From: Escherichia coli
Lineage (GTDB): Bacteria; Pseudomonadota; Gammaproteobacteria; Enterobacterales; Enterobacteriaceae
Assembly: GCF_041248615.1 (NCBI RefSeq)
Contig: NZ_CP158426.1
Length of the DNA stretch: 64,000 nt
Strand: one strand, 5' to 3'
Translations under genes and position numbers: made by a program
Shown here: one piece after another, positions 36,866-55,103 of the stretch
How the letters are laid out: every line of letters begins with the position of its first letter
Numbering within the stretch: position 1 is the first letter of the stretch
Notes under the pieces: generated by a model
The model's database searches: none
The model's input: only the letters and a program-made list of their open reading frames with translations
Told to the model about the DNA's origin: nothing

Positions 36866-37188
36866 ACTTTCAGGCCCCTCTCATGTAACCAGTGGGCTGC
36901 ACGCAGCCTGCCGTTTTCCTCACCGGCAAGCAGTGCGCGGATAATCCCGACCGCCTCGCTGTCGTCGTCCTTCACCGCGGTATGAAGCGTTATCCCCCGG
37001 GCCACGCCACGCTTTATCGTGATGACGCCTTTTTTCTCCAGTGCACGAAGATGCTCTACCGCTGCATTCACTGAACGGTATCCCAGCATGGTTGCCACCT
37101 CCTGATTGGTTGGCGGAAAGCCACGCTCTTTCTGGTAAGAAATCAGCATATCCAGCACCTGCTGCTGGCATTGAGTTAACGTCGTCAT
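36862..37188 (-). CDS. LexA N-terminal DNA-binding-domain homolog lacking the S24 peptidase domain
   Basis: MTTLTQCQQQVLDMLISYQKERGFPPTNQEVATMLGYRSVNAAVEHLRALEKKGVI aligns closely with E. coli LexA residues 1-70; ORF ends after about 108 aa. Confidence 0.6.
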   Translation of the reverse strand: MTTLTQCQQQVLDMLISYQKERGFPPTNQEVATMLGYRSVNAAVEHLRALEKKGVITIKRGVARGITLHTAVKDDDSEAVGIIRALLAGEENGRLRAAHWLHERGLKV

Positions 37189-37676
37189 TACGCCCCCACG
37201 TAATTCCCTGACAGATACCACTCATCACTCGATACAGCGCGCTTGCTGCTTTTCCGTAAACACTGCTCACGACGCGCCAGAAAATTGTTTCGTTCTGGCT
37301 GGGAGTGGCTTTCACGGAATGCCGCCATCCACACCGTTGCAGCACGACGGTATAAGCCCCTTGACTCCAGTTCTTCAGCCTGGCGGGTCAGGCACAAAAT
37401 CACCCGGGGATCGTTAGTGCCGACATAGAAATTGCGCACAGGTCTGGTTTCACGAACTGGTTGTGGTTCCGGCTCCTGCGCTCTCTCAGTCAGGCGCGGG
37501 AAATGTCTGCGTGTATCTCCTTCACAACGGTGAGCCACACGCCCACTCTGACGTAACTTGCTTGCTGACTGCAGAACGCGCTGCCGTGAGTAACCTGCAA
37601 AAGCATCCGCAATGTCTCCGGAAGTACACCCCGGATGGGCTTCAATGAATTTCTGAACTTCATTCAAAAGACTCAT
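37188..37676 (-). CDS. PerC/ANR-family transcriptional regulator-like protein
   Basis: C-terminal half (ELESRGLYRRAATVWMAAF...RREQCLRK) resembles PerC; N-terminal half is winged-helix-like. Confidence 0.45.
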   Translation of the reverse strand: MSLLNEVQKFIEAHPGCTSGDIADAFAGYSRQRVLQSASKLRQSGRVAHRCEGDTRRHFPRLTERAQEPEPQPVRETRPVRNFYVGTNDPRVILCLTRQAEELESRGLYRRAATVWMAAFRESHSQPERNNFLARREQCLRKSSKRAVSSDEWYLSGNYVGA

Positions 37677-37678
37677 AA

Positions 37679-38620
37679 TCACCCCCTGAATCCTGCCGGG
37701 ATCTGGCTGTAGTCCACGTTGTCGTAACTGGCTTTGAAGTACGGGTCTTCACGTTTTTCTGTGTGCGTGCTGACGGACGGCGATAAGCGCAGGGAAAGCT
37801 CATCCCATTTTTCCCGCAACTTCGACGGGCTGAGCACGTTACGGCACCAGAACGGATCGCGGCTGACGCGGCTGTACATCTCGCAGATTTGTTTGTGAGT
37901 ACGACCATCCTGCACACACATCAGGCGAATTTCGTTTGCCCAGGCTGTCCAGTTAGGTTCTTTGGGACGAACCACCTCGCCGTCACATTCGGCGGCCTGC
38001 TCGTACAGGGCGATGATTTTTTTCCAGAGCCACTGTGCGCAGGTCAAATCATCCTGCGTTCCCCACTGGCGCTTTTTAGGGCTGAATACAACCGCATCAG
38101 GATGGCGAGTTAAAAAATCCTGTTCATCCATCTGCGTGTCCGGTTGCGAAGCGTCCGGACGAGAAGGTTTTTTATCTGATGGATCATGTTTTGATTTTAC
38201 TGACGGATCCCCGCCAGATTCTGACGGGTGAAAACCCGCTTTTTTGCCAGATTTCGACGCATCAAATTTTGACGGGTCAGATTTTGATGCGTCAGATTTT
38301 GACGGGTCAGAATCTGACAGTTGAGAAAATGCCGCTGCCTGAAGCTTCGCAACGTTAAGCTGATAAACATTCGACGCATTGCGGTTACCCTGGCGACGCG
38401 CCTTACGCGTTAACCAGCCTTCTGCTTCCAGCCGTGCGATAGCCGTTCTGACGGTACTCATCCCCGCGCCAATCTGACGGGCAATGGTTTCAATTGATGG
38501 CCAGCACACACCTTCGTCATTACTGAAATCAGCCAGGCGGGCCATAATTGCCACGCTGGATAACTTCATGCCTGATGCAGCGCAACCATCCCATACATAG
38601 CCGGTTAATTTAGTGCTCAT
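37679..38620 (-). CDS. phage replication initiation protein (replisome-organiser N-domain, DnaT-like C-terminus)
   Basis: N-terminal wHTH (CWPSIETIARQIGAGMSTVRTAIARLEAEGWL); repeat-encoded linker; C-terminus YDNVDYSQIPAGFRG mirrors the DnaT C-terminus [13 protein letters not shown] at 60180-60204. Confidence 0.6.
   Translation of the reverse strand: MSTKLTGYVWDGCAASGMKLSSVAIMARLADFSNDEGVCWPSIETIARQIGAGMSTVRTAIARLEAEGWLTRKARRQGNRNASNVYQLNVAKLQAAAFSQLSDSDPSKSDASKSDPSKFDASKSGKKAGFHPSESGGDPSVKSKHDPSDKKPSRPDASQPDTQMDEQDFLTRHPDAVVFSPKKRQWGTQDDLTCAQWLWKKIIALYEQAAECDGEVVRPKEPNWTAWANEIRLMCVQDGRTHKQICEMYSRVSRDPFWCRNVLSPSKLREKWDELSLRLSPSVSTHTEKREDPYFKASYDNVDYSQIPAGFRG
38185..38330. repeat. iteron-like direct repeats inside the replication gene (putative ori)
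   Basis: About five copies of (C/T)AGAT(T/C)(T/C)TGACGGGT spaced at roughly 18-20 bp, with an adjacent A+T-rich stretch. Confidence 0.5.
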
Positions 38621-38968: not shown

Positions 38969-39555
38969 GCGTTAGTTTCTCCACAACCAGAAGCAATCGA
39001 CGCCACGACGCCCGGAGCTGCACACTCACGGGCGTCATTACTTTCTGAAATGCAAAAAATTTTGTAGACAAGTGCTGCATGCTCCTGCAGCTTCGAAATT
39101 GAGAGATACAGCTCGTCGTTAATTGCTGTCTTCTCATGCGGTTCCACTACGCCGTCTTCGATTGCTGAACGAATCTGTTTTGAATAACTGCCGATCTGTT
39201 CAATGACTTCCAGCAGACGCTGGTTAATATCGGCGTTGTCCACATCCTCGACGTCAGGAAGAGACACAAAGACGCCATTTGCAGACTGCGCCACAGCATC
39301 AGCAATGAAGTGAGTGCCACCAGCACGCTGTAAAACCATTGCCCATCCCAGCGGGAAAATCTGATCGCCATCTGCACGAAGGCGGTTGAATAAAGCGTTC
39401 TCTGTTACATCCAGCCAGTCAGCGGCTTCAGCGTAACCCCCCGGCAACGCCGCGATAGTTTTTCTGACAGCTTTCACGTACCACTCAGGCTGTTTTTCTA
39501 TTTTCCAGTGATGCTTACCCACGGCTATCTCCTTAAAACTGTGGTTACTTTTCAT
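38965..39555 (-). CDS. CII-like phage regulatory protein (Phage_CP76/YdaT-like)
   Basis: Position after cro; weak resemblance to the CP76/YdaT-type family; start uncertain. Confidence 0.35.
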
Positions 39556-47878: not shown

Positions 47879-50011
47879 TCAATCTTTAAGACTAATTGTG
47901 ATTGCATCTGGAAATCCAATTTGGCTATAGCACATAGTTTCGGTTATGAATAATTTTCTATCGATAAAATCAAGTACATCTTTTTTCGTGAGCCCCGTTA
48001 ACATCGTCAATTTGTTAATTACATAATCATACCAATCATGGTGAAGCATGTTTATATACATGTTAATATCAACTGCATCTTTCTTCCATGAATTATTCGG
48101 TATCAAATCTTCAGATAAAAATCCTCTTATTAAATCGCTTGCATAGGACATCCTAAGAAAAACAGAAAGAAAAAGCCTTACATTAACATGTGTAAAATTT
48201 GTAGATAGCGTCGAAGGAAACTCGTAAAACCGGTAGATCAACCGACTTACAAAAACAGCAGAGTCTATCGCATTTACAGGCAGTAATGTTCCGATGACAC
48301 TTAATGCACCACTTATAACGAAGCCATTAGCAACAGAGGCATGAGAACCACTTAGGGCAGATGTTAAACATGCACTCAGAATTACGATAGGAGGAATTCT
48401 TGCTATTTTTCTCAAACTCCAAGTGTCCACTTTATCCTCACCTATTATTAACCATCCATGACTCCCATTGCCATCATGGTTTCCATGACAATCCATAACA
48501 AGAATATGACCTTGATATTGATTTAGAGCATCAATAAACTCAGCTTTCGATCTAACATCAATAATCTCGCAATCAAGATCTGGCATCTGTTTTTTAAATA
48601 TCTCAATTGCGTTCTCTAATATGAACTTTAAGTGATCATCAGGCTCAAAAGAACGTATAACTAAAACCTTTCTCAACTCAGATGCTTTTACTAAAACGCG
48701 CGGAAAAGCAGAGGCGCTCTGTAGAAGAACGTTACCAGGCGTAGCATTTATTCTTGATATCTCATGACTGAACATTATAGGTATGTTATTAAACCTAATC
48801 CAATCCAATGGTACATCACAAACAAAGGACAAATCGCTATAGTTTTTACTTATATATGTTCTCAACTTGCAACCAAGGGCTCTTCGAATAACAGTATTGA
48901 ATGCTTTAGATTTAGTGATGAATGCTTCACTATTTATCCCAGAAGAAGTTGCAAGATCTTCAAGATTTTTCAAATAATTGGAGTAATGATTTATTGCATT
49001 TGGCAATCTTATTGCTGGGATTTTTTTATTTATGCTAAATAAAGTAATCGCAGCTGTTGTTAATCGCATTTCAGCGCGTCTTAGTGAGGTGAGGTAACGG
49101 AAAGCAGGACTTTTAAAAAGTTCTTTTCTATCTGAATTTATATCAAGTCTAATTCCAGAATAGCCTGGATTCCTCAACACTCCATCAATAAGGAATTTTT
49201 TCTCAATTGTGGATAAATTTTCCGTTATTAACTCATAAAAGTCATTATTTTTATCATATAAAAAAGAGTGCATACCCGGAGCAAAAAGTAAGACTTCCGT
49301 TGGAAGTGGTATATCTAATTCCTTTAAACATTCGGTGTATGCATCAACGCTATGAAGTATTATTTCTATAAACTCTCTTTTGCTACTACCATCTTTAATT
49401 CTTTTTGGTGGAGATAGCATATAGCCAAGTGATTCAATTAACAACTCATTGGGTAGTGTTGAATTGTTAAGCGTCGATCTCCAAGGTGATTTATTAAATA
49501 AAGCCCCTCTTCGCTTCAACTTCGTTGATATTTTCTTTTCACTGTGATTTTTTCTTATTTTATCCTCAATGAATTTCAACCGAGAGAAGAGCACCTTATC
49601 AAATGAGTATATACTATTAATCTTATTAAGTGGTAGATCAGCGCGTTTAGAATTGCAACAAATTATAGGTGGTATAGCAAAATGTTTTTTTAAAGCACAA
49701 ACATACGAAAAATCTTCTTTAGCACAAAAAATTAAGCAAAATGGCGTTTGATAAATATTTGGTATTTTTTCAAGATTTTCTTTAGATATTAAAAAAATAG
49801 GATTTAGCCCGCTTAGAGTAGGCTGAAAGTTATCATTTTCACTGACAAAAATCTCACTAATTTCTTTTGGTGTTTTGGCCAATAAAAAAAGAATGTTGGA
49901 TATCTCTGGGTTGAGGAGGCCAGTATCGAAACCTTGGATTATGGTTTGTTCCCCAGTAGTAGGCATGATTACAACTTTAAGTATCGCCCCGTGTTCCTGT
50001 AACAGTTCCAT
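47879..50011 (-). CDS. CHAT-domain (caspase-like cysteine protease) protein with an uncharacterised N-terminal region
   Basis: C-terminal GHILVMDCHGNHDG ... PPIVILSACLTSALSGSHASVANGFVISGALSVIG has the His-Gly / Ser-Ala-Cys catalytic signature of CHAT peptidases; AGGA SD before MELLQ; strongly AT-rich. Confidence 0.6.
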   Translation of the reverse strand: MELLQEHGAILKVVIMPTTGEQTIIQGFDTGLLNPEISNILFLLAKTPKEISEIFVSENDNFQPTLSGLNPIFLISKENLEKIPNIYQTPFCLIFCAKEDFSYVCALKKHFAIPPIICCNSKRADLPLNKINSIYSFDKVLFSRLKFIEDKIRKNHSEKKISTKLKRRGALFNKSPWRSTLNNSTLPNELLIESLGYMLSPPKRIKDGSSKREFIEIILHSVDAYTECLKELDIPLPTEVLLFAPGMHSFLYDKNNDFYELITENLSTIEKKFLIDGVLRNPGYSGIRLDINSDRKELFKSPAFRYLTSLRRAEMRLTTAAITLFSINKKIPAIRLPNAINHYSNYLKNLEDLATSSGINSEAFITKSKAFNTVIRRALGCKLRTYISKNYSDLSFVCDVPLDWIRFNNIPIMFSHEISRINATPGNVLLQSASAFPRVLVKASELRKVLVIRSFEPDDHLKFILENAIEIFKKQMPDLDCEIIDVRSKAEFIDALNQYQGHILVMDCHGNHDGNGSHGWLIIGEDKVDTWSLRKIARIPPIVILSACLTSALSGSHASVANGFVISGALSVIGTLLPVNAIDSAVFVSRLIYRFYEFPSTLSTNFTHVNVRLFLSVFLRMSYASDLIRGFLSEDLIPNNSWKKDAVDINMYINMLHHDWYDYVINKLTMLTGLTKKDVLDFIDRKLFITETMCYSQIGFPDAITISLKD

Positions 50012-50144: not shown

Positions 50145-51362
50145 CTAGTCTGAACAAGTACAAGTAACTATCGATTCAACTCTCTCCCACCATGCCTGGT
50201 AAGCTTTACGCTGTTCATCTAAATAATCGCTCTTGTCATAAACCTGCCATACCCCTGGCAGTTTATGACCGAGCATTATTTCTGCAATATGAGGTGCAGT
50301 AAGATCAGAAAAGTTTGTTCGTGCTGTTCGTCTCAAATCATGAAGAGACCAATGAGGGAATTGATACCCCAAACGCCGCCATGCGTACTGCATTAAATTG
50401 TAAGGCAGCGACTGCAATGATGTCCGGCCAACGGGTTCCCTGCTTCCTTCCTTAGTAAAAAGCATATCGGAACCATTGTTCATAGAGATAACGTACTTTA
50501 TAAGCTCTTCAACCGGTTCAATAATGGGGCGCTTTAGCGGTTCGCCTGTTATATCCCCTGTCTTATGTCGTTCTGGCGGTACAGTCCATACCTTATTAAT
50601 GAAATCAAAATCATTCACCCTAGCGGTAATTAGCTCTGAACTACGGCAGCCAAAATGCAGCAATAGTTTAATGAAGGCCCGGTATTTAGGAACCATTCGA
50701 GAACCATCGATCGCAGCATAAAGGATTTTAATTTCATCATGTGTCAGAAACCGTTTCTTCTGACCTTTACGGATATCCATATCTTTACCCGTGATATCCG
50801 ACAGCGGGCGAGTTTCAATGAGCTTTCTCTTATACGCCCAGACATGGGCCTGCTTTGCGTTAATTAGCAATCGGTCTGCTATTGCTGGAGTCTTAGTGCT
50901 AAGAGGCTCCAGGACTTCTAACCAATCATGCAATGTAGCTGCATCGTGAGGGATATTCCCGATTTTAGAGAACAGGTGCAGCTCAAACGAGCGGAGTATC
51001 TGTTCAGAACCTTTTTTATTTTTTACACAATATGCTTCATACCAGGCACGGATCACAGACTCTACCGTCATGGCTTCAGTAGCTTTTCGTTTTTCAGCCT
51101 GCTTGACTAATCGTGGATTGCGGTTTGACTCGAGTTCACCACGGAGACGGATAACTTCTTCTCTGGCCTCTTTTAATCCAGTTGCCGGGTAAGTTCCGAT
51201 ATCAAGGCGCTCACCTTTCCCTGCCCATTGATAACGATATTGGAACACTACGCGACCTTTCGGTGATACTCTGACAGACAGACCATCACGATCGGATTTA
51301 ACCAAAACCTTATCACGTTCCTTTCCAACGACTGAACGCAACCACGCATCAGACAGCGCCAT
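50145..51362 (-). CDS. tyrosine recombinase / phage integrase (P4-type)
   Basis: 405 aa; N-terminal DGLSVRVSPKGRVVFQYRY; C-terminal HDLRRTART ... LGH ... Y catalytic pattern. Confidence 0.85.
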   Translation of the reverse strand: MALSDAWLRSVVGKERDKVLVKSDRDGLSVRVSPKGRVVFQYRYQWAGKGERLDIGTYPATGLKEAREEVIRLRGELESNRNPRLVKQAEKRKATEAMTVESVIRAWYEAYCVKNKKGSEQILRSFELHLFSKIGNIPHDAATLHDWLEVLEPLSTKTPAIADRLLINAKQAHVWAYKRKLIETRPLSDITGKDMDIRKGQKKRFLTHDEIKILYAAIDGSRMVPKYRAFIKLLLHFGCRSSELITARVNDFDFINKVWTVPPERHKTGDITGEPLKRPIIEPVEELIKYVISMNNGSDMLFTKEGSREPVGRTSLQSLPYNLMQYAWRRLGYQFPHWSLHDLRRTARTNFSDLTAPHIAEIMLGHKLPGVWQVYDKSDYLDEQRKAYQAWWERVESIVTCTCSD

Positions 51363-54780: not shown

Positions 54781-54867
54781 GCGAAGGTGGCGGAATTGGT
54801 AGACGCGCTAGCTTCAGGTGTTAGTGTCCTTACGGACGTGGGGGTTCAAGTCCCCCCCCTCGCACCA
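54781..54867 (+). tRNA. leuQ: tRNA-Leu (CAG)
   Basis: 87-nt sequence GCGAAGGTGGCGGAATTGGTAGACGCGCTAGCTTCAGGTG...CTCGCACCA with anticodon loop CTTCAGGT and long variable arm. Confidence 0.9.
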
Positions 54868-54895
54868 AAAACCACGTTGATATTGCTCGCACTGG

Positions 54896-54982
54896 GCGAA
54901 GGTGGCGGAATTGGTAGACGCGCTAGCTTCAGGTGTTAGTGTCCTTACGGACGTGGGGGTTCAAGTCCCCCCCCTCGCACCA
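54896..54982 (+). tRNA. leuP: tRNA-Leu (CAG)
   Basis: Identical second copy. Confidence 0.9.
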
Positions 54983-55016
54983 AACGAGGCGATATCAAAA
55001 AAAGTAAGATGACTGT

Positions 55017-55103
55017 GCGAAGGTGGCGGAATTGGTAGACGCGCTAGCTTCAGGTGTTAGTGTCCTTACGGACGTGGGGGTTCAAGTCCCCCCCCTCGCA
55101 CCA
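55017..55103 (+). tRNA. leuV: tRNA-Leu (CAG)
   Basis: Identical third copy. Confidence 0.9.

What the first reader, a model, noticed from the sequence alone, without database searches (positions are those of the whole stretch)
37679..38620. Replication initiator with in-gene iteron-like repeats and a DnaT-like C-terminal tail
Inside the replication gene there are about five direct repeats of a 15-bp unit beside an A+T-rich stretch, the same arrangement as the lambda origin inside O. The C-terminus ends in SQIPAGFRG, nearly the same as host DnaT (SQIPPGFRG, encoded 21 kb away in this window). This may mean the phage protein uses the DnaT interaction surface to recruit host primosome components.
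Basis: partly seen in the sequence, partly recalled or inferred. Interest (0 to 1): 0.42.

Follow-up and report, generated by a model that had tools for sequence, protein, structure and literature searches.

The report
Phage origin gene with DnaT-like tail
This is a very common E. coli prophage replication-initiator gene that carries its own origin repeats and ends in the same short tail as the host restart protein DnaT; across phages this tail accompanies only DnaC-type helicase loaders, so it is probably how both proteins call in the host helicase.

Summary
The gene at 37679-38620 (-) is the replication initiator of a SfIV/SfII-type lambdoid prophage (98% identical DNA). It has a winged-helix N-domain and a disordered linker encoded by four to six 15-bp repeats next to a 30%-GC stretch. 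Its C-terminal domain is homologous to that of lambda O (E 8e-26). Each related DNA-binding domain has its own repeat unit at the same place, as expected of iterons.

Similarity to DnaT is confined to a roughly 20-residue C-terminal tail. The DnaT fold, linker and N-domain are absent. The tail is not chance: it sits on at least 11 unrelated initiator bodies.

In phage contigs the tail type tracks the adjacent helicase loader:
- DnaT-type tails come with close DnaC homologues or with no loader, and never with lambda P.
- NTDW tails (lambda O type) come with P.
- A third tail type comes with a distant AAA+ loader.

This prophage has no loader gene. The best reading is that the tail recruits host DnaC-DnaB, mirroring the host dnaT-dnaC operon. 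This is inferred, not shown. The last two codons (AGG GGG) also serve as the Shine-Dalgarno of the next gene. Having dnaT 22 kb away is coincidence.

The parts
37679..38620 (-). Replication initiator gene (313 aa), a lambda O-type protein of a SfIV/SfII-like prophage
   Evidence: PHROG 391 'replication initiation O-like', E 1.5e-135 over the full length. 98.2% DNA identity to Shigella phage SfIV gp41, annotated 'primosomal protein' or 'replication protein'. PGAP calls it 'helix-turn-helix domain-containing protein'.
38336..38620 (-). N-terminal winged-helix origin-binding domain (aa 1-95)
   Evidence: Pfam HTH_36 PF13730, E 4e-11, aa 23-70. The AF2 model shows helices and a beta-hairpin over aa 3-98 with pLDDT 71-89. 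This is not the Phage_rep_O domain of lambda O.
38212..38327 (.). Iteron-like array. Unit TCTGAC(C/G)C(G/A)TCAAAA on the gene strand at 15-bp spacing: exact copies at 38297-38311, 38282-38296 and 38267-38281; degenerate copies at 38252-38266 and 38312-38326; an inverted copy at 38220-38234. It encodes the linker peptide SDPSK SDASK SDPSK FDASK.
   Evidence: The region is disordered in the AF2 model (aa 103-162, pLDDT below 50). Relatives with other N-domains have other repeat units at the same position. The bound sites in lambda and phi80 lie at the same relative place in their genes.
38160..38199 (.). A+T-rich stretch (30% GC), the candidate DNA-unwinding element. Two GATC sites lie within 38150-38215.
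   Evidence: It lies downstream of the repeats in the direction of gene transcription, as in ori-lambda (one search shows the A-rich run after the lambda iterons).
37790..38125 (-). Lambda O-type C-terminal domain (aa 166-277)
37682..37741 (-). C-terminal tail (aa 294-313, YFKASYDNVDYSQIPAGFRG), the DnaT-type short motif. Its last two codons, AGG GGG (37682-37687), double as the Shine-Dalgarno of the next gene.
   Evidence: Predicted disordered. The identical 24-aa tail sits on an unrelated protein body in mEp460, SfV and Stx2a_1447.
37188..37682 (-). Downstream gene yfdN (wHTH plus PerC-like, 164 aa), which occupies the slot where lambda has P. No helicase loader or helicase gene is present in the module.
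   Evidence: Pfam PerC, E 8e-10. PHROG 'transcriptional activator'. The SfIV and window annotations show no P, DnaC or DnaB-type gene.
59665..60204 (+). Host dnaT. The tail [20 protein letters not shown] is encoded at about 60142-60201.
   Evidence: (PF17948 covers aa 89-154 only), (the tail is invariant in orthologues).
60207..60944 (+). Host dnaC, which starts 2 nt after the dnaT stop. The AGAGGG in the last dnaT codons is its Shine-Dalgarno.

Best explanation
The gene is the origin-specific replication initiator of a lambdoid prophage, and the phage origin lies inside it. Dimers of the N-terminal winged-helix domain are inferred to bind the 15-bp repeats (38212-38327) that also encode the protein's own disordered linker. 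The adjacent 30%-GC stretch (38160-38199) is inferred to melt. The C-terminal half is a lambda O-type domain. In lambda O the extreme C-terminus is an NTDW-type tail and the next gene is the loader P. Here the tail is the DnaT-type motif (...D-Y-S-Q-I-P-A-G-F-R-G-COOH) and there is no loader gene. The most likely mechanism is that this tail is a short docking peptide for the DnaC-type helicase loader, meaning DnaC itself or the DnaB6-DnaC6 complex. The origin-bound initiator would then bring in the host DnaB-DnaC directly, with no phage loader. DnaT would use the same tail at restart forks. What is shown: family membership, repeat anatomy, covariation of repeats with the DNA-binding domain, tail conservation at the amino-acid level, and one-to-one covariation of tail type with loader type. 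What is inferred: origin function, and the identity of the tail's binding partner.
For: Initiator and origin: PHROG 391 E 1.5e-135; lambda O C-domain homology; same position of repeats and A-rich run as the annotated sites of lambda and phi80. With the same C-domain, N-domain type MSTKLTGY goes with TCTGACCCGTCAAAA, MSSKLHGL with CCCGTCAAATATTGA, MSLLMTSQ/MKLLFAER with 23-bp units, and MSNQVFEI with a 22-bp unit x7. SfIV, which carries a 98% identical module, is UV-inducible and forms plaques (PMC3851460), so a loaderless module works.

The tail as a functional peptide: it is shared by DnaT orthologues (G-F-R-G, I-P, P-D, S and N invariant) and by phage initiators. Synonymous codons vary freely at the conserved N, S, P, D, I, P and G positions. 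It occurs on 11 body clusters at 35% identity.

Partner: of 118 viral-contig ORFs ending in IPPGFRG, 68 have a DnaC-like gene immediately downstream, 43 have none and 0 have a P-like gene. Of 110 ORFs with the NTDWxxG tail, 94 have P, 4 have none and 0 have DnaC. In the reverse direction, a scan for the loader Walker-A motif found that 31 of 35 close DnaC homologues are preceded by an xPxGF(R/K)G tail, while the about 290-aa distant AAA+ loaders are preceded by DYGxTEIPxWA tails. Pooled adjacent pairs: 91/91, 32/35 and 87/90 respectively. The same N-terminal types (lambda O N-terminus, MLRQVTGVSM, MSMxLMVKAM) carry different tails according to the loader. Loaderless modules are common only in the DnaT-tail class. 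That fits a partner the host supplies, because the host has DnaC but not P. The host dnaT-dnaC operon has the same gene order.
Against: No binding experiment or complex prediction was possible, and no DnaT-DnaC interaction has been documented (PMC5778457). The 2026 preprimosome paper favours the DnaT N-domain as the possible DnaB/DnaC recruiter (PMC13377028). The tail-coding DNA abuts the loader gene, so covariation is partly what physical linkage in mosaic phages would give. The final Arg-Gly codons are AGG GGG in most cases, which is a Shine-Dalgarno constraint rather than only a protein constraint. Origin activity of the repeats is untested.
Confidence: 0.6

Rival explanations
1. The tail docks on a host factor other than the loader, for example PriA, PriC, SSB, DnaG or DnaB alone. 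The phage would then enter the restart pathway at a different step.
For: DnaT acts within a PriA-PriB complex. The motif (acidic residues, then I-P-x-G-F) loosely resembles the SSB C-terminal peptide DDDIPF that PriA binds. The partner of DnaT residues 154-179 is unknown.
Against: These host factors are the same for every E. coli phage, so they do not explain why the tail type switches with the loader subfamily: close DnaC, distant AAA+ or P. PriA contacts the folded DnaT C-domain and PriB contacts the acidic linker, and the phage protein has neither.
Confidence: 0.17
2. The tail has no external partner. It promotes self-association or cooperative ssDNA binding of the initiator on the melted origin, as reported for DnaT.
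For: Removing DnaT residues 154-179 raised the apparent Kd for dT30 from about 13 to 27 uM and lowered the Hill coefficient (PMC4132743).
Against: The effect in DnaT is small. The phage bodies carrying the tail are structurally unrelated, so a shared oligomer interface is unlikely. This reading does not explain why the tail occurs only with DnaC-type loaders.
Confidence: 0.08
3. The conservation is at the nucleotide level: a ribosome-binding or translational-coupling signal for the next gene, or a recombination linker of mosaic phages. On this view the peptide is incidental.
For: The last two codons are AGG (64 of 79) and GGG (61 of 79) and lie 5-9 nt before the next start codon. AGG is a rare Arg codon. 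The junction with unrelated bodies falls exactly at the start of the tail.
Against: Over the preceding 15 or so codons the amino acids are conserved while synonymous codons vary (for example Gly -4: GGA 25, GGC 23, GGG 21, GGT 10). Some tails keep R-G with CGC GGT and have no nearby start codon. The motif is also kept where the downstream gene differs.
Confidence: 0.07
4. The small winged-helix protein encoded downstream (YfdN/PerC-like here; DUF977 or DUF1627-type proteins elsewhere) is an unrecognised helicase loader, so the module is not loaderless.
For: It sits in the P slot. Non-homologous loaders have repeatedly replaced one another (PMC11087808).
Against: DUF1627 proteins also follow the DnaC-like gene when one is present. 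The downstream proteins differ between loaderless modules while the tail stays the same. Pfam and PHROG class YfdN as a PerC-type transcriptional activator.
Confidence: 0.08
5. The 15-bp repeats are only a low-complexity coding linker (SDPSK/SDASK) and the origin lies elsewhere.
For: No functional test exists. Repeat-encoded Ser/Asp-rich linkers can arise by slippage.
Against: [quoted passage not shown] Repeats are present at the same gene position in every initiator examined, including lambda and phi80, where binding is annotated. An inverted copy and an adjacent 30%-GC stretch are not needed for a linker.
Confidence: 0.06

Closest known systems
Bacteriophage lambda O protein and ori-lambda (with the loader P)
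   Same: The C-terminal domain is homologous (E 8e-26). The origin lies inside the initiator gene, with repeats at codons about 98-136 followed by an A-rich stretch. The module sits after cII in the early right operon.
   Different: [quoted passage not shown] The repeats are 15 bp at 15-bp spacing instead of four 18-19-bp palindromic sites. The tail is of DnaT type, not NTDWIYGVDL. There is no P gene.
Phage phi80 gene 15 / gene 14
   Same: The C-domain is 35% identical. The annotated gp15 binding sites lie inside gene 15. Some family members are named 'Replication protein 15' by their sources.
   Different: phi80 gp15 ends in NNTDWAYGVIR and is followed by the P-like gp14.
E. coli DnaT (primosomal protein i) and the dnaT-dnaC operon
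   Same: The terminal motif I-P-x-G-F-R-G-COOH, preceded by an acidic, proline-containing stretch. In other phage initiators the match extends to about 17-19 residues (VNHISEPDTEIPPGFRG against [17 protein letters not shown]). The gene order 'tail-bearing protein then DnaC' is the same in Gifsy-2, POCJ13 and Rac-like modules.
   Different: No PF17948 three-helix bundle, no DnaT N-domain, and no evidence of PriA or PriB contacts. DnaT is recruited by fork structure through PriA, whereas this protein is recruited by sequence through its own repeats.
Gifsy-2 'O' + DnaC-like, Shigella phage POCJ13 gp16 + DnaC-like, Rac-type YdaU-like + DnaC-like
   Same: They carry the same DnaT-type tail on origin or replication proteins of lambdoid prophages.
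   Different: They encode their own close DnaC homologue. Their protein bodies differ (Phage_rep_O N-domain in Gifsy-2; other folds in the rest).
DopC/DopE (domesticated lambda O/P-like pair, Brezellec et al. 2017, PMC5509034)
   Same: An HTH_36 O-like protein reported to carry a DnaT C-terminal motif.
   Different: DopC is chromosomal, pairs with a P-like protein, and no iterons were found in it. Here the gene is a phage gene with iterons and no loader.
SSB C-terminal tail (DDDIPF) as a partner-recruiting peptide
   Same: The principle is the same: a disordered C-terminal acidic and hydrophobic peptide that recruits replication proteins. This rests on established knowledge; for the PriA-SSB-Ct example.
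   Different: The sequence is different and no partner has been shown. This is an analogy only.

Membership tests
Lambda O-type replication initiators (PHROG 391 / lambda O C-domain superfamily) | C-terminal domain homologous to that of lambda O | tested here: met
   BLASTP E 8e-26; tblastn 39% identity; PHROG 391 E 1.5e-135.
Lambda O-type replication initiators (PHROG 391 / lambda O C-domain superfamily) | N-terminal Phage_rep_O (PF04492) origin-binding domain | tested here: not met
   Pfam finds HTH_36 and no PF04492. Gifsy-2 O, scanned the same way, does have PF04492.
Lambda O-type replication initiators (PHROG 391 / lambda O C-domain superfamily) | Iterons inside the initiator gene followed by an A+T-rich region | tested here: met
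   Covariation with the DNA-binding domain is shown.
Lambda O-type replication initiators (PHROG 391 / lambda O C-domain superfamily) | Adjacent lambda P-type loader and an NTDW-type C-terminal tail | tested here: not met
   The next gene is PerC-like. The tail is SQIPAGFRG. 94 of 110 NTDW-tailed ORFs have P downstream.
Lambda O-type replication initiators (PHROG 391 / lambda O C-domain superfamily) | Origin-specific binding and replication activity | not testable with these tools
   Requires EMSA or footprinting and a plasmid ori assay.
DnaT (primosomal protein i, PF17948) | Three-helix-bundle ssDNA-binding, PriA-docking C-domain | tested here: not met
DnaT (primosomal protein i, PF17948) | N-terminal oligomerisation domain and acidic PriB-binding linker | tested here: not met
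   BLASTP and hhalign show no similarity outside the tail. Function of the phage linker was not tested.
DnaT (primosomal protein i, PF17948) | Conserved C-terminal tail ...P-D-x-x-I-P-x-G-F-R-G | tested here: met
HTH_36 winged-helix replication/DnaD-N-like DNA-binding domains | PF13730 match above the gathering score | tested here: met
   42.9 bits against a cut-off of 25.
DnaD-like / G39P-like replisome organiser C-domains | Helical DnaD-type fold | tested here: inconclusive

The most novel reading that the evidence does not exclude
The roughly 19-residue C-terminal tail shared by DnaT and by dozens of phage initiators is the docking peptide for DnaC (or DnaB6-DnaC6). It would be the missing contact by which the PriA-PriB-DnaT preprimosome recruits the helicase. 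More generally, phage initiators would carry interchangeable C-terminal 'address' peptides, one per loader family: GFRG for DnaC, NTDW and WNSxExW for lambda P, and DYGxTEIPxWA for a distant AAA+ loader. The host dnaT-dnaC operon would then be a domesticated phage 'tail-bearing protein + loader' module.
Probability: 0.4. Interest if true: 0.75.

Novelty: new variant of a known kind. Interest (0 to 1): 0.55.

Why it matters
The gene itself is ordinary. The module occurs in about half of complete E. coli genomes and in sequenced phages, where it is already labelled 'primosomal protein' or 'replication protein O'. What is not in the literature I could search is the rule behind the DnaT-like tail. 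Across phage replication modules, the last ~20 residues of the initiator switch with the type of helicase loader, and the DnaT-type tail goes only with close DnaC homologues or with no phage loader at all.

Reviews state that how the PriA-PriB-DnaT preprimosome recruits DnaB/DnaC is unknown and that no DnaT-DnaC interaction has been documented (PMC5778457; PMC13377028). The function of DnaT residues 154-179 is likewise undefined (PMC4132743). The comparative pattern turns this into a simple test: does the tail peptide bind DnaC? It also suggests which part of lambda O contacts P, a contact that has still not been visualised (PMC12661323). Finally, it explains how SfIV-type phages replicate with a single replication gene.

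Tried and rejected
- phmmer against PDB sequences found only MarR-type HTH hits for the N-domain.
- The search for related loci with the C-domain profile returned 80 near-identical loci. These were useless for the loader survey, so I switched to degenerate DNA patterns for the tails and for the loader Walker-A motif.
- Literature searches for YdaU/YdaV and for 'DnaT-like' returned nothing relevant.
- The 2026 preprimosome paper was read for a role of the DnaT tail, and its text mentions none.
- I considered that dnaT lying 22 kb away might matter (gene conversion or co-regulation). I rejected this because the prophage is integrated next to yjjG and the same module occurs at many other chromosomal sites.
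- One search was an empty script.
Full report
**What is at the coordinates**

The ORF at 37679-38620 (-) encodes 313 aa. It matches PHROG 391 'replication initiation O-like' over its full length (E 1.5e-135). Its DNA is 98.2% identical to gene 41 of Shigella phage SfIV and about 98% identical to the corresponding genes of SfII, Kati and other E. coli phages. In those records it is annotated 'primosomal protein', 'DNA replication protein O' or 'Primosomal protein I'.

The window is E. coli NRZ14408 (NZ_LT599825.1). The gene lies in a lambda-like prophage that runs from the tail genes to an integrase next to yjjG. PGAP calls the gene 'helix-turn-helix domain-containing protein'. The 2.9-kb module is found in 2788 of 5426 complete E. 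coli genomes. As a sequence, the gene is therefore ordinary and very common.

**Anatomy of the protein**

- Pfam finds only an N-terminal HTH_36 winged helix (E 4e-11).
- An AlphaFold2 model built with 31 family members gives a folded N-domain (aa 3-98), a disordered linker (aa 103-162, pLDDT below 50), a confident helical C-domain (aa 166-278) and a disordered tail (aa 284-313).
- The C-domain is homologous to that of lambda O (BLASTP E 8e-26; tblastn 39% identity) and to phi80 gp15 (35%).
- A profile of this domain finds 6355 representative clusters among 1.84 billion proteins.

**The repeats**

Tandem Repeats Finder reports 38248-38311 with period 15 (4.3 copies) or period 30 (2.1 copies, 88% matches). 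The repeat finder extends the family to six copies over 38212-38327. On the gene strand the units read TCTGACCCGTCAAAA, TCTGACGCATCAAAA, TCTGACCCGTCAAAA and TTTGATGCGTCGAAA. There are degenerate flanking copies and one inverted copy at 38220-38234. The window holds four matches to the consensus against 0.62 expected by chance, and no shuffle out of 100 reached four.

The units encode the linker peptide SDPSK-SDASK-SDPSK-FDASK, which is the disordered part of the model. Immediately downstream in the direction of transcription lies the lowest-GC 40-nt window of the gene (38160-38199, 30% GC). Two GATC sites fall within 38150-38215.

This is the layout of ori-lambda, where four annotated iterons sit at nt 348-432 of O and are followed by an A-rich run. 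It is also the layout of phi80, which has four annotated gp15 sites inside gene 15. In all twelve initiator genes examined, including those of lambda and phi80, Tandem Repeats Finder reports repeats within roughly nt 290-630.

The strongest comparative evidence is covariation. Among proteins sharing this C-domain, each N-domain type has its own repeat unit:
- N-domain MSTKLTGY... goes with TCTGACCCGTCAAAA.
- MSSKLHGL... goes with CCCGTCAAATATTGA.
- MSLLMTSQ... and MKLLFAER... go with 23-bp units.
- MSNQVFEI... goes with a 22-bp unit repeated seven times.

That is the behaviour of initiator-iteron specificity pairs, not of a mere low-complexity linker. Origin activity itself remains untested.

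**The DnaT resemblance**

Host dnaT lies at 59665-60204 and dnaC at 60207-60944. DnaT ends in SQIPPGFRG and the phage protein in SQIPAGFRG. The resemblance stops at the tail:
- The DnaT DNA-binding domain PF17948 covers DnaT residues 89-154 and is not detected in the phage protein even at E <= 10.
- A profile-profile comparison aligns only the last 15 columns (E 5e-4).
- A DnaT C-terminal HMM matches phage proteins only over DnaT residues about 153-179.
- Structural searches do not return DnaT.

According to the 2026 preprimosome structures, PriA contacts the folded DnaT C-domain and PriB contacts the acidic linker (PMC13377028). The phage protein has neither element.

The tail itself is clearly not chance. 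In DnaT orthologues the motif [KR]-R-D-[VIL]-N-x-[VLI]-S-E-P-D-x-x-I-P-x-G-F-R-G is nearly invariant, and 66 distinct phage tails follow the same pattern. Some members of this very family end in VNHISEPDTEIPPGFRG, against [17 protein letters not shown] in DnaT.

**The tail is a mobile module**

The identical 24 residues REDPYFKASYDNVDYSQIPAGFRG terminate an otherwise unrelated C-terminal body in the replication proteins of mEp460, SfV and Stx2a_1447. Gifsy-2 'O' (Phage_rep_O N-domain), POCJ13 gp16 and Rac-type 285-aa proteins carry DnaT-type tails on yet other bodies. In a scan of IMG/VR for ORFs ending in IPPGFRG, all 118 recovered ORFs sit in this kind of position, and they fall into 11 body clusters at 35% identity and 70% coverage.

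**Tail type follows loader type**

Scans selected by tail:

| Tail class | ORFs | DnaC-like gene immediately downstream | Lambda P-like downstream | No loader | Contig too short |
|---|---|---|---|---|---|
| IPPGFRG | 118 | 68 | 0 | 43 | 7 |
| NTDWxxG (lambda O type) | 110 | 0 | 94 | 4 | 12 |

Scan selected by the loader Walker-A motif PGTGKNHL:
- Close DnaC homologues (phmmer E < 1e-90): 30 are preceded by an xPxGFRG tail and one by GFKG, out of 35 that have any upstream ORF.
- The four exceptions have only 107-123-aa upstream ORFs or a truncated loader ORF, and I did not resolve them.
- A distinct set of about 290-aa AAA+ loaders (E about 1e-33) is preceded by a different tail, DYGxTEIPxWA(R/Q)(D/E).

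Adjacent pairs pooled over all scans, using ORFs of at least 150 aa (part of this set was selected by tail):

| Loader downstream | Upstream ORFs with the matching tail |
|---|---|
| Close DnaC homologue | 91 of 91 (DnaT type) |
| Distant AAA+ loader | 32 of 35 (DYGxTEIPxWA) |
| Lambda P-like | 87 of 90 (NTDWxxG); the other three carry NTDW a few residues further in |

Representative proteins give the same answer. P0250 and P0283 (WNSxExW-type tails) are followed by Phage_lambda_P. P0245 (PPGFRG) is followed by an IstB/DnaC-type gene. P0280, P0273, P0292 and P0289 (GFRG tails) have no loader.

The same N-terminal initiator types occur with different tails according to the loader. Examples are the lambda O N-terminus MTNTAKILNF, MLRQVTGVSM, MARSRNIKPG and MSMxLMVKAM. 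Counting body clusters rather than sequences, eight clusters with a DnaC-type loader all carry the GFRG tail and five clusters with P all carry NTDW. By my own hand calculation, a Fisher exact test on these counts gives about 8e-4.

**Reading of the pattern**

Host factors such as PriA, PriB, PriC, SSB and DnaB are the same for all these enterobacterial phages. They cannot explain a tail that switches with the loader subfamily, but the loader itself can. Loaderless modules are common only in the DnaT-tail class (43 of 111 against 4 of 98). This is expected if the partner is something the host supplies, because E. coli has DnaC but no P.

SfIV carries a loaderless module 98% identical to the window's. 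It is UV-inducible and plaque-forming (PMC3851460), so such a module works. The host operon has the same order, dnaT (tail) then dnaC, with the dnaC start 2 nt after the dnaT stop.

I therefore think the tail is a docking peptide for DnaC or DnaB-DnaC. In this prophage it would let the origin-bound initiator recruit the host helicase-loader complex directly. This part is inference. [quoted passage not shown] DnaT residues 154-179 are of unknown structure and have only a modest effect on ssDNA binding (PMC4132743).

**Caveats**

- The tail-coding 60 bp abut the loader gene, so linkage in mosaic phages contributes to the covariation. Against linkage alone, the motif is retained in loaderless phages and in DnaT. 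The conserved positions also use synonymous codons freely, for example Gly -4 as GGA 25, GGC 23, GGG 21 and GGT 10.
- The final Arg-Gly is encoded by AGG (64 of 79) and GGG (61 of 79). This is a Shine-Dalgarno sequence 5-9 nt before the next start codon: AGGGGGTGATTATG in the window and AGAGGGTAACGATG for dnaT-dnaC.

**Prior knowledge and novelty**

Annotation pipelines already label these proteins 'primosomal protein (I)'. Brezellec et al. noted a DnaT C-terminal motif in the domesticated O-like protein DopC (PMC5509034). In the open literature available here I found no description of the tail-loader rule, nor of a role for the DnaT tail. The object is best called a variant of the lambda O/ori module in which the P-addressing tail is replaced by a DnaC-addressing (DnaT-type) tail and the loader gene is dispensed with.

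**Verdict**

The locus alone is of modest interest. It becomes moderately to highly interesting as a lead to a testable answer on how DnaT hands over to DnaB-DnaC.

Noticed in passing
window 47879-50011 (-): A 710-aa CHAT-domain protein next to the prophage integrase matches the PADLOC model BovA (Borvo anti-phage defence) at E 2.6e-241. The prophage therefore carries a defence gene at its attachment-site end.
   Followed up: partly
window 40598-41518 (-): A 306-aa protein with internal repeats and a C-terminal BRCT domain (Pfam E 1.4e-6; weak PADLOC PDC-S48 hit) lies directly beside the cI-like repressor gene. Its function is unknown.
   Followed up: partly
IMG/VR loci L340-L427 (e.g. L344, L352, L377): A fourth initiator tail class, ...KDYGQTE(I/M)P(S/A)WA(R/Q)(D/E), always precedes a distinct AAA+ loader of about 290 aa (phmmer E about 1e-33 to DnaC). 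It occurs on the same N-terminal initiator types, including the lambda O N-terminus, that elsewhere carry NTDW tails with P.
   Followed up: partly
IMG/VR loci L365, L371, L372: Initiators upstream of a 241-aa DnaC-like loader end in ...(Q/E)FIPEDF or FISENF, which resembles the SSB C-terminal peptide DDDIPF.
   Followed up: no
IMG/VR loci L096, L098, L103 and others (285-aa ORF MLFVLILSHRAA...): A Rac-type (YdaU-like, as I recall the K-12 gene) 285-aa protein ends in VNTVSLPDSAIPPGFRG, almost identical to the DnaT tail, and is followed after 7 nt by a close DnaC homologue. This is the nearest phage counterpart of the dnaT-dnaC operon.
   Followed up: partly
window 37682-37687 and 60196-60201: The last two codons of both the phage gene (AGG GGG) and dnaT (AGA GGG) form the Shine-Dalgarno of the next gene. 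AGG is used for the penultimate Arg in 64 of 79 distinct tails.
   Followed up: yes
window 38212-38327 versus lambda 39034-39118 (L004 1035-1119): The window repeat core C(C/G)C(G/A)TCAAAA resembles the left half of the lambda iteron ATCCCTCAAAACGAGGGA, although the two DNA-binding domains belong to different Pfam families. This may be coincidence.
   Followed up: no
window 54781-55103 (+): Three tandem tRNA-Leu(CAG) genes lie between the prophage and dnaT. They are not the integration site, since the integrase is at about 50145-51362 beside yjjG.
   Followed up: partly
window ~43045-43742 and ~46485-47693: An IS1 element and an IS1414 (IS256-like) element are inserted in the early-left region of the prophage, and there is a frameshifted ORF nearby. 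The prophage may be partly decayed even though its replication module is intact.
   Followed up: no
IMG/VR loci L094, L104, L105, L122 and others; L090, L005, L337: In loaderless DnaT-tail modules the gene right after the initiator is nearly always a small winged-helix protein (DUF977, DUF1627 or PerC-N-like, 130-220 aa). DUF1627 proteins also follow the DnaC-like gene when one is present.
   Followed up: partly
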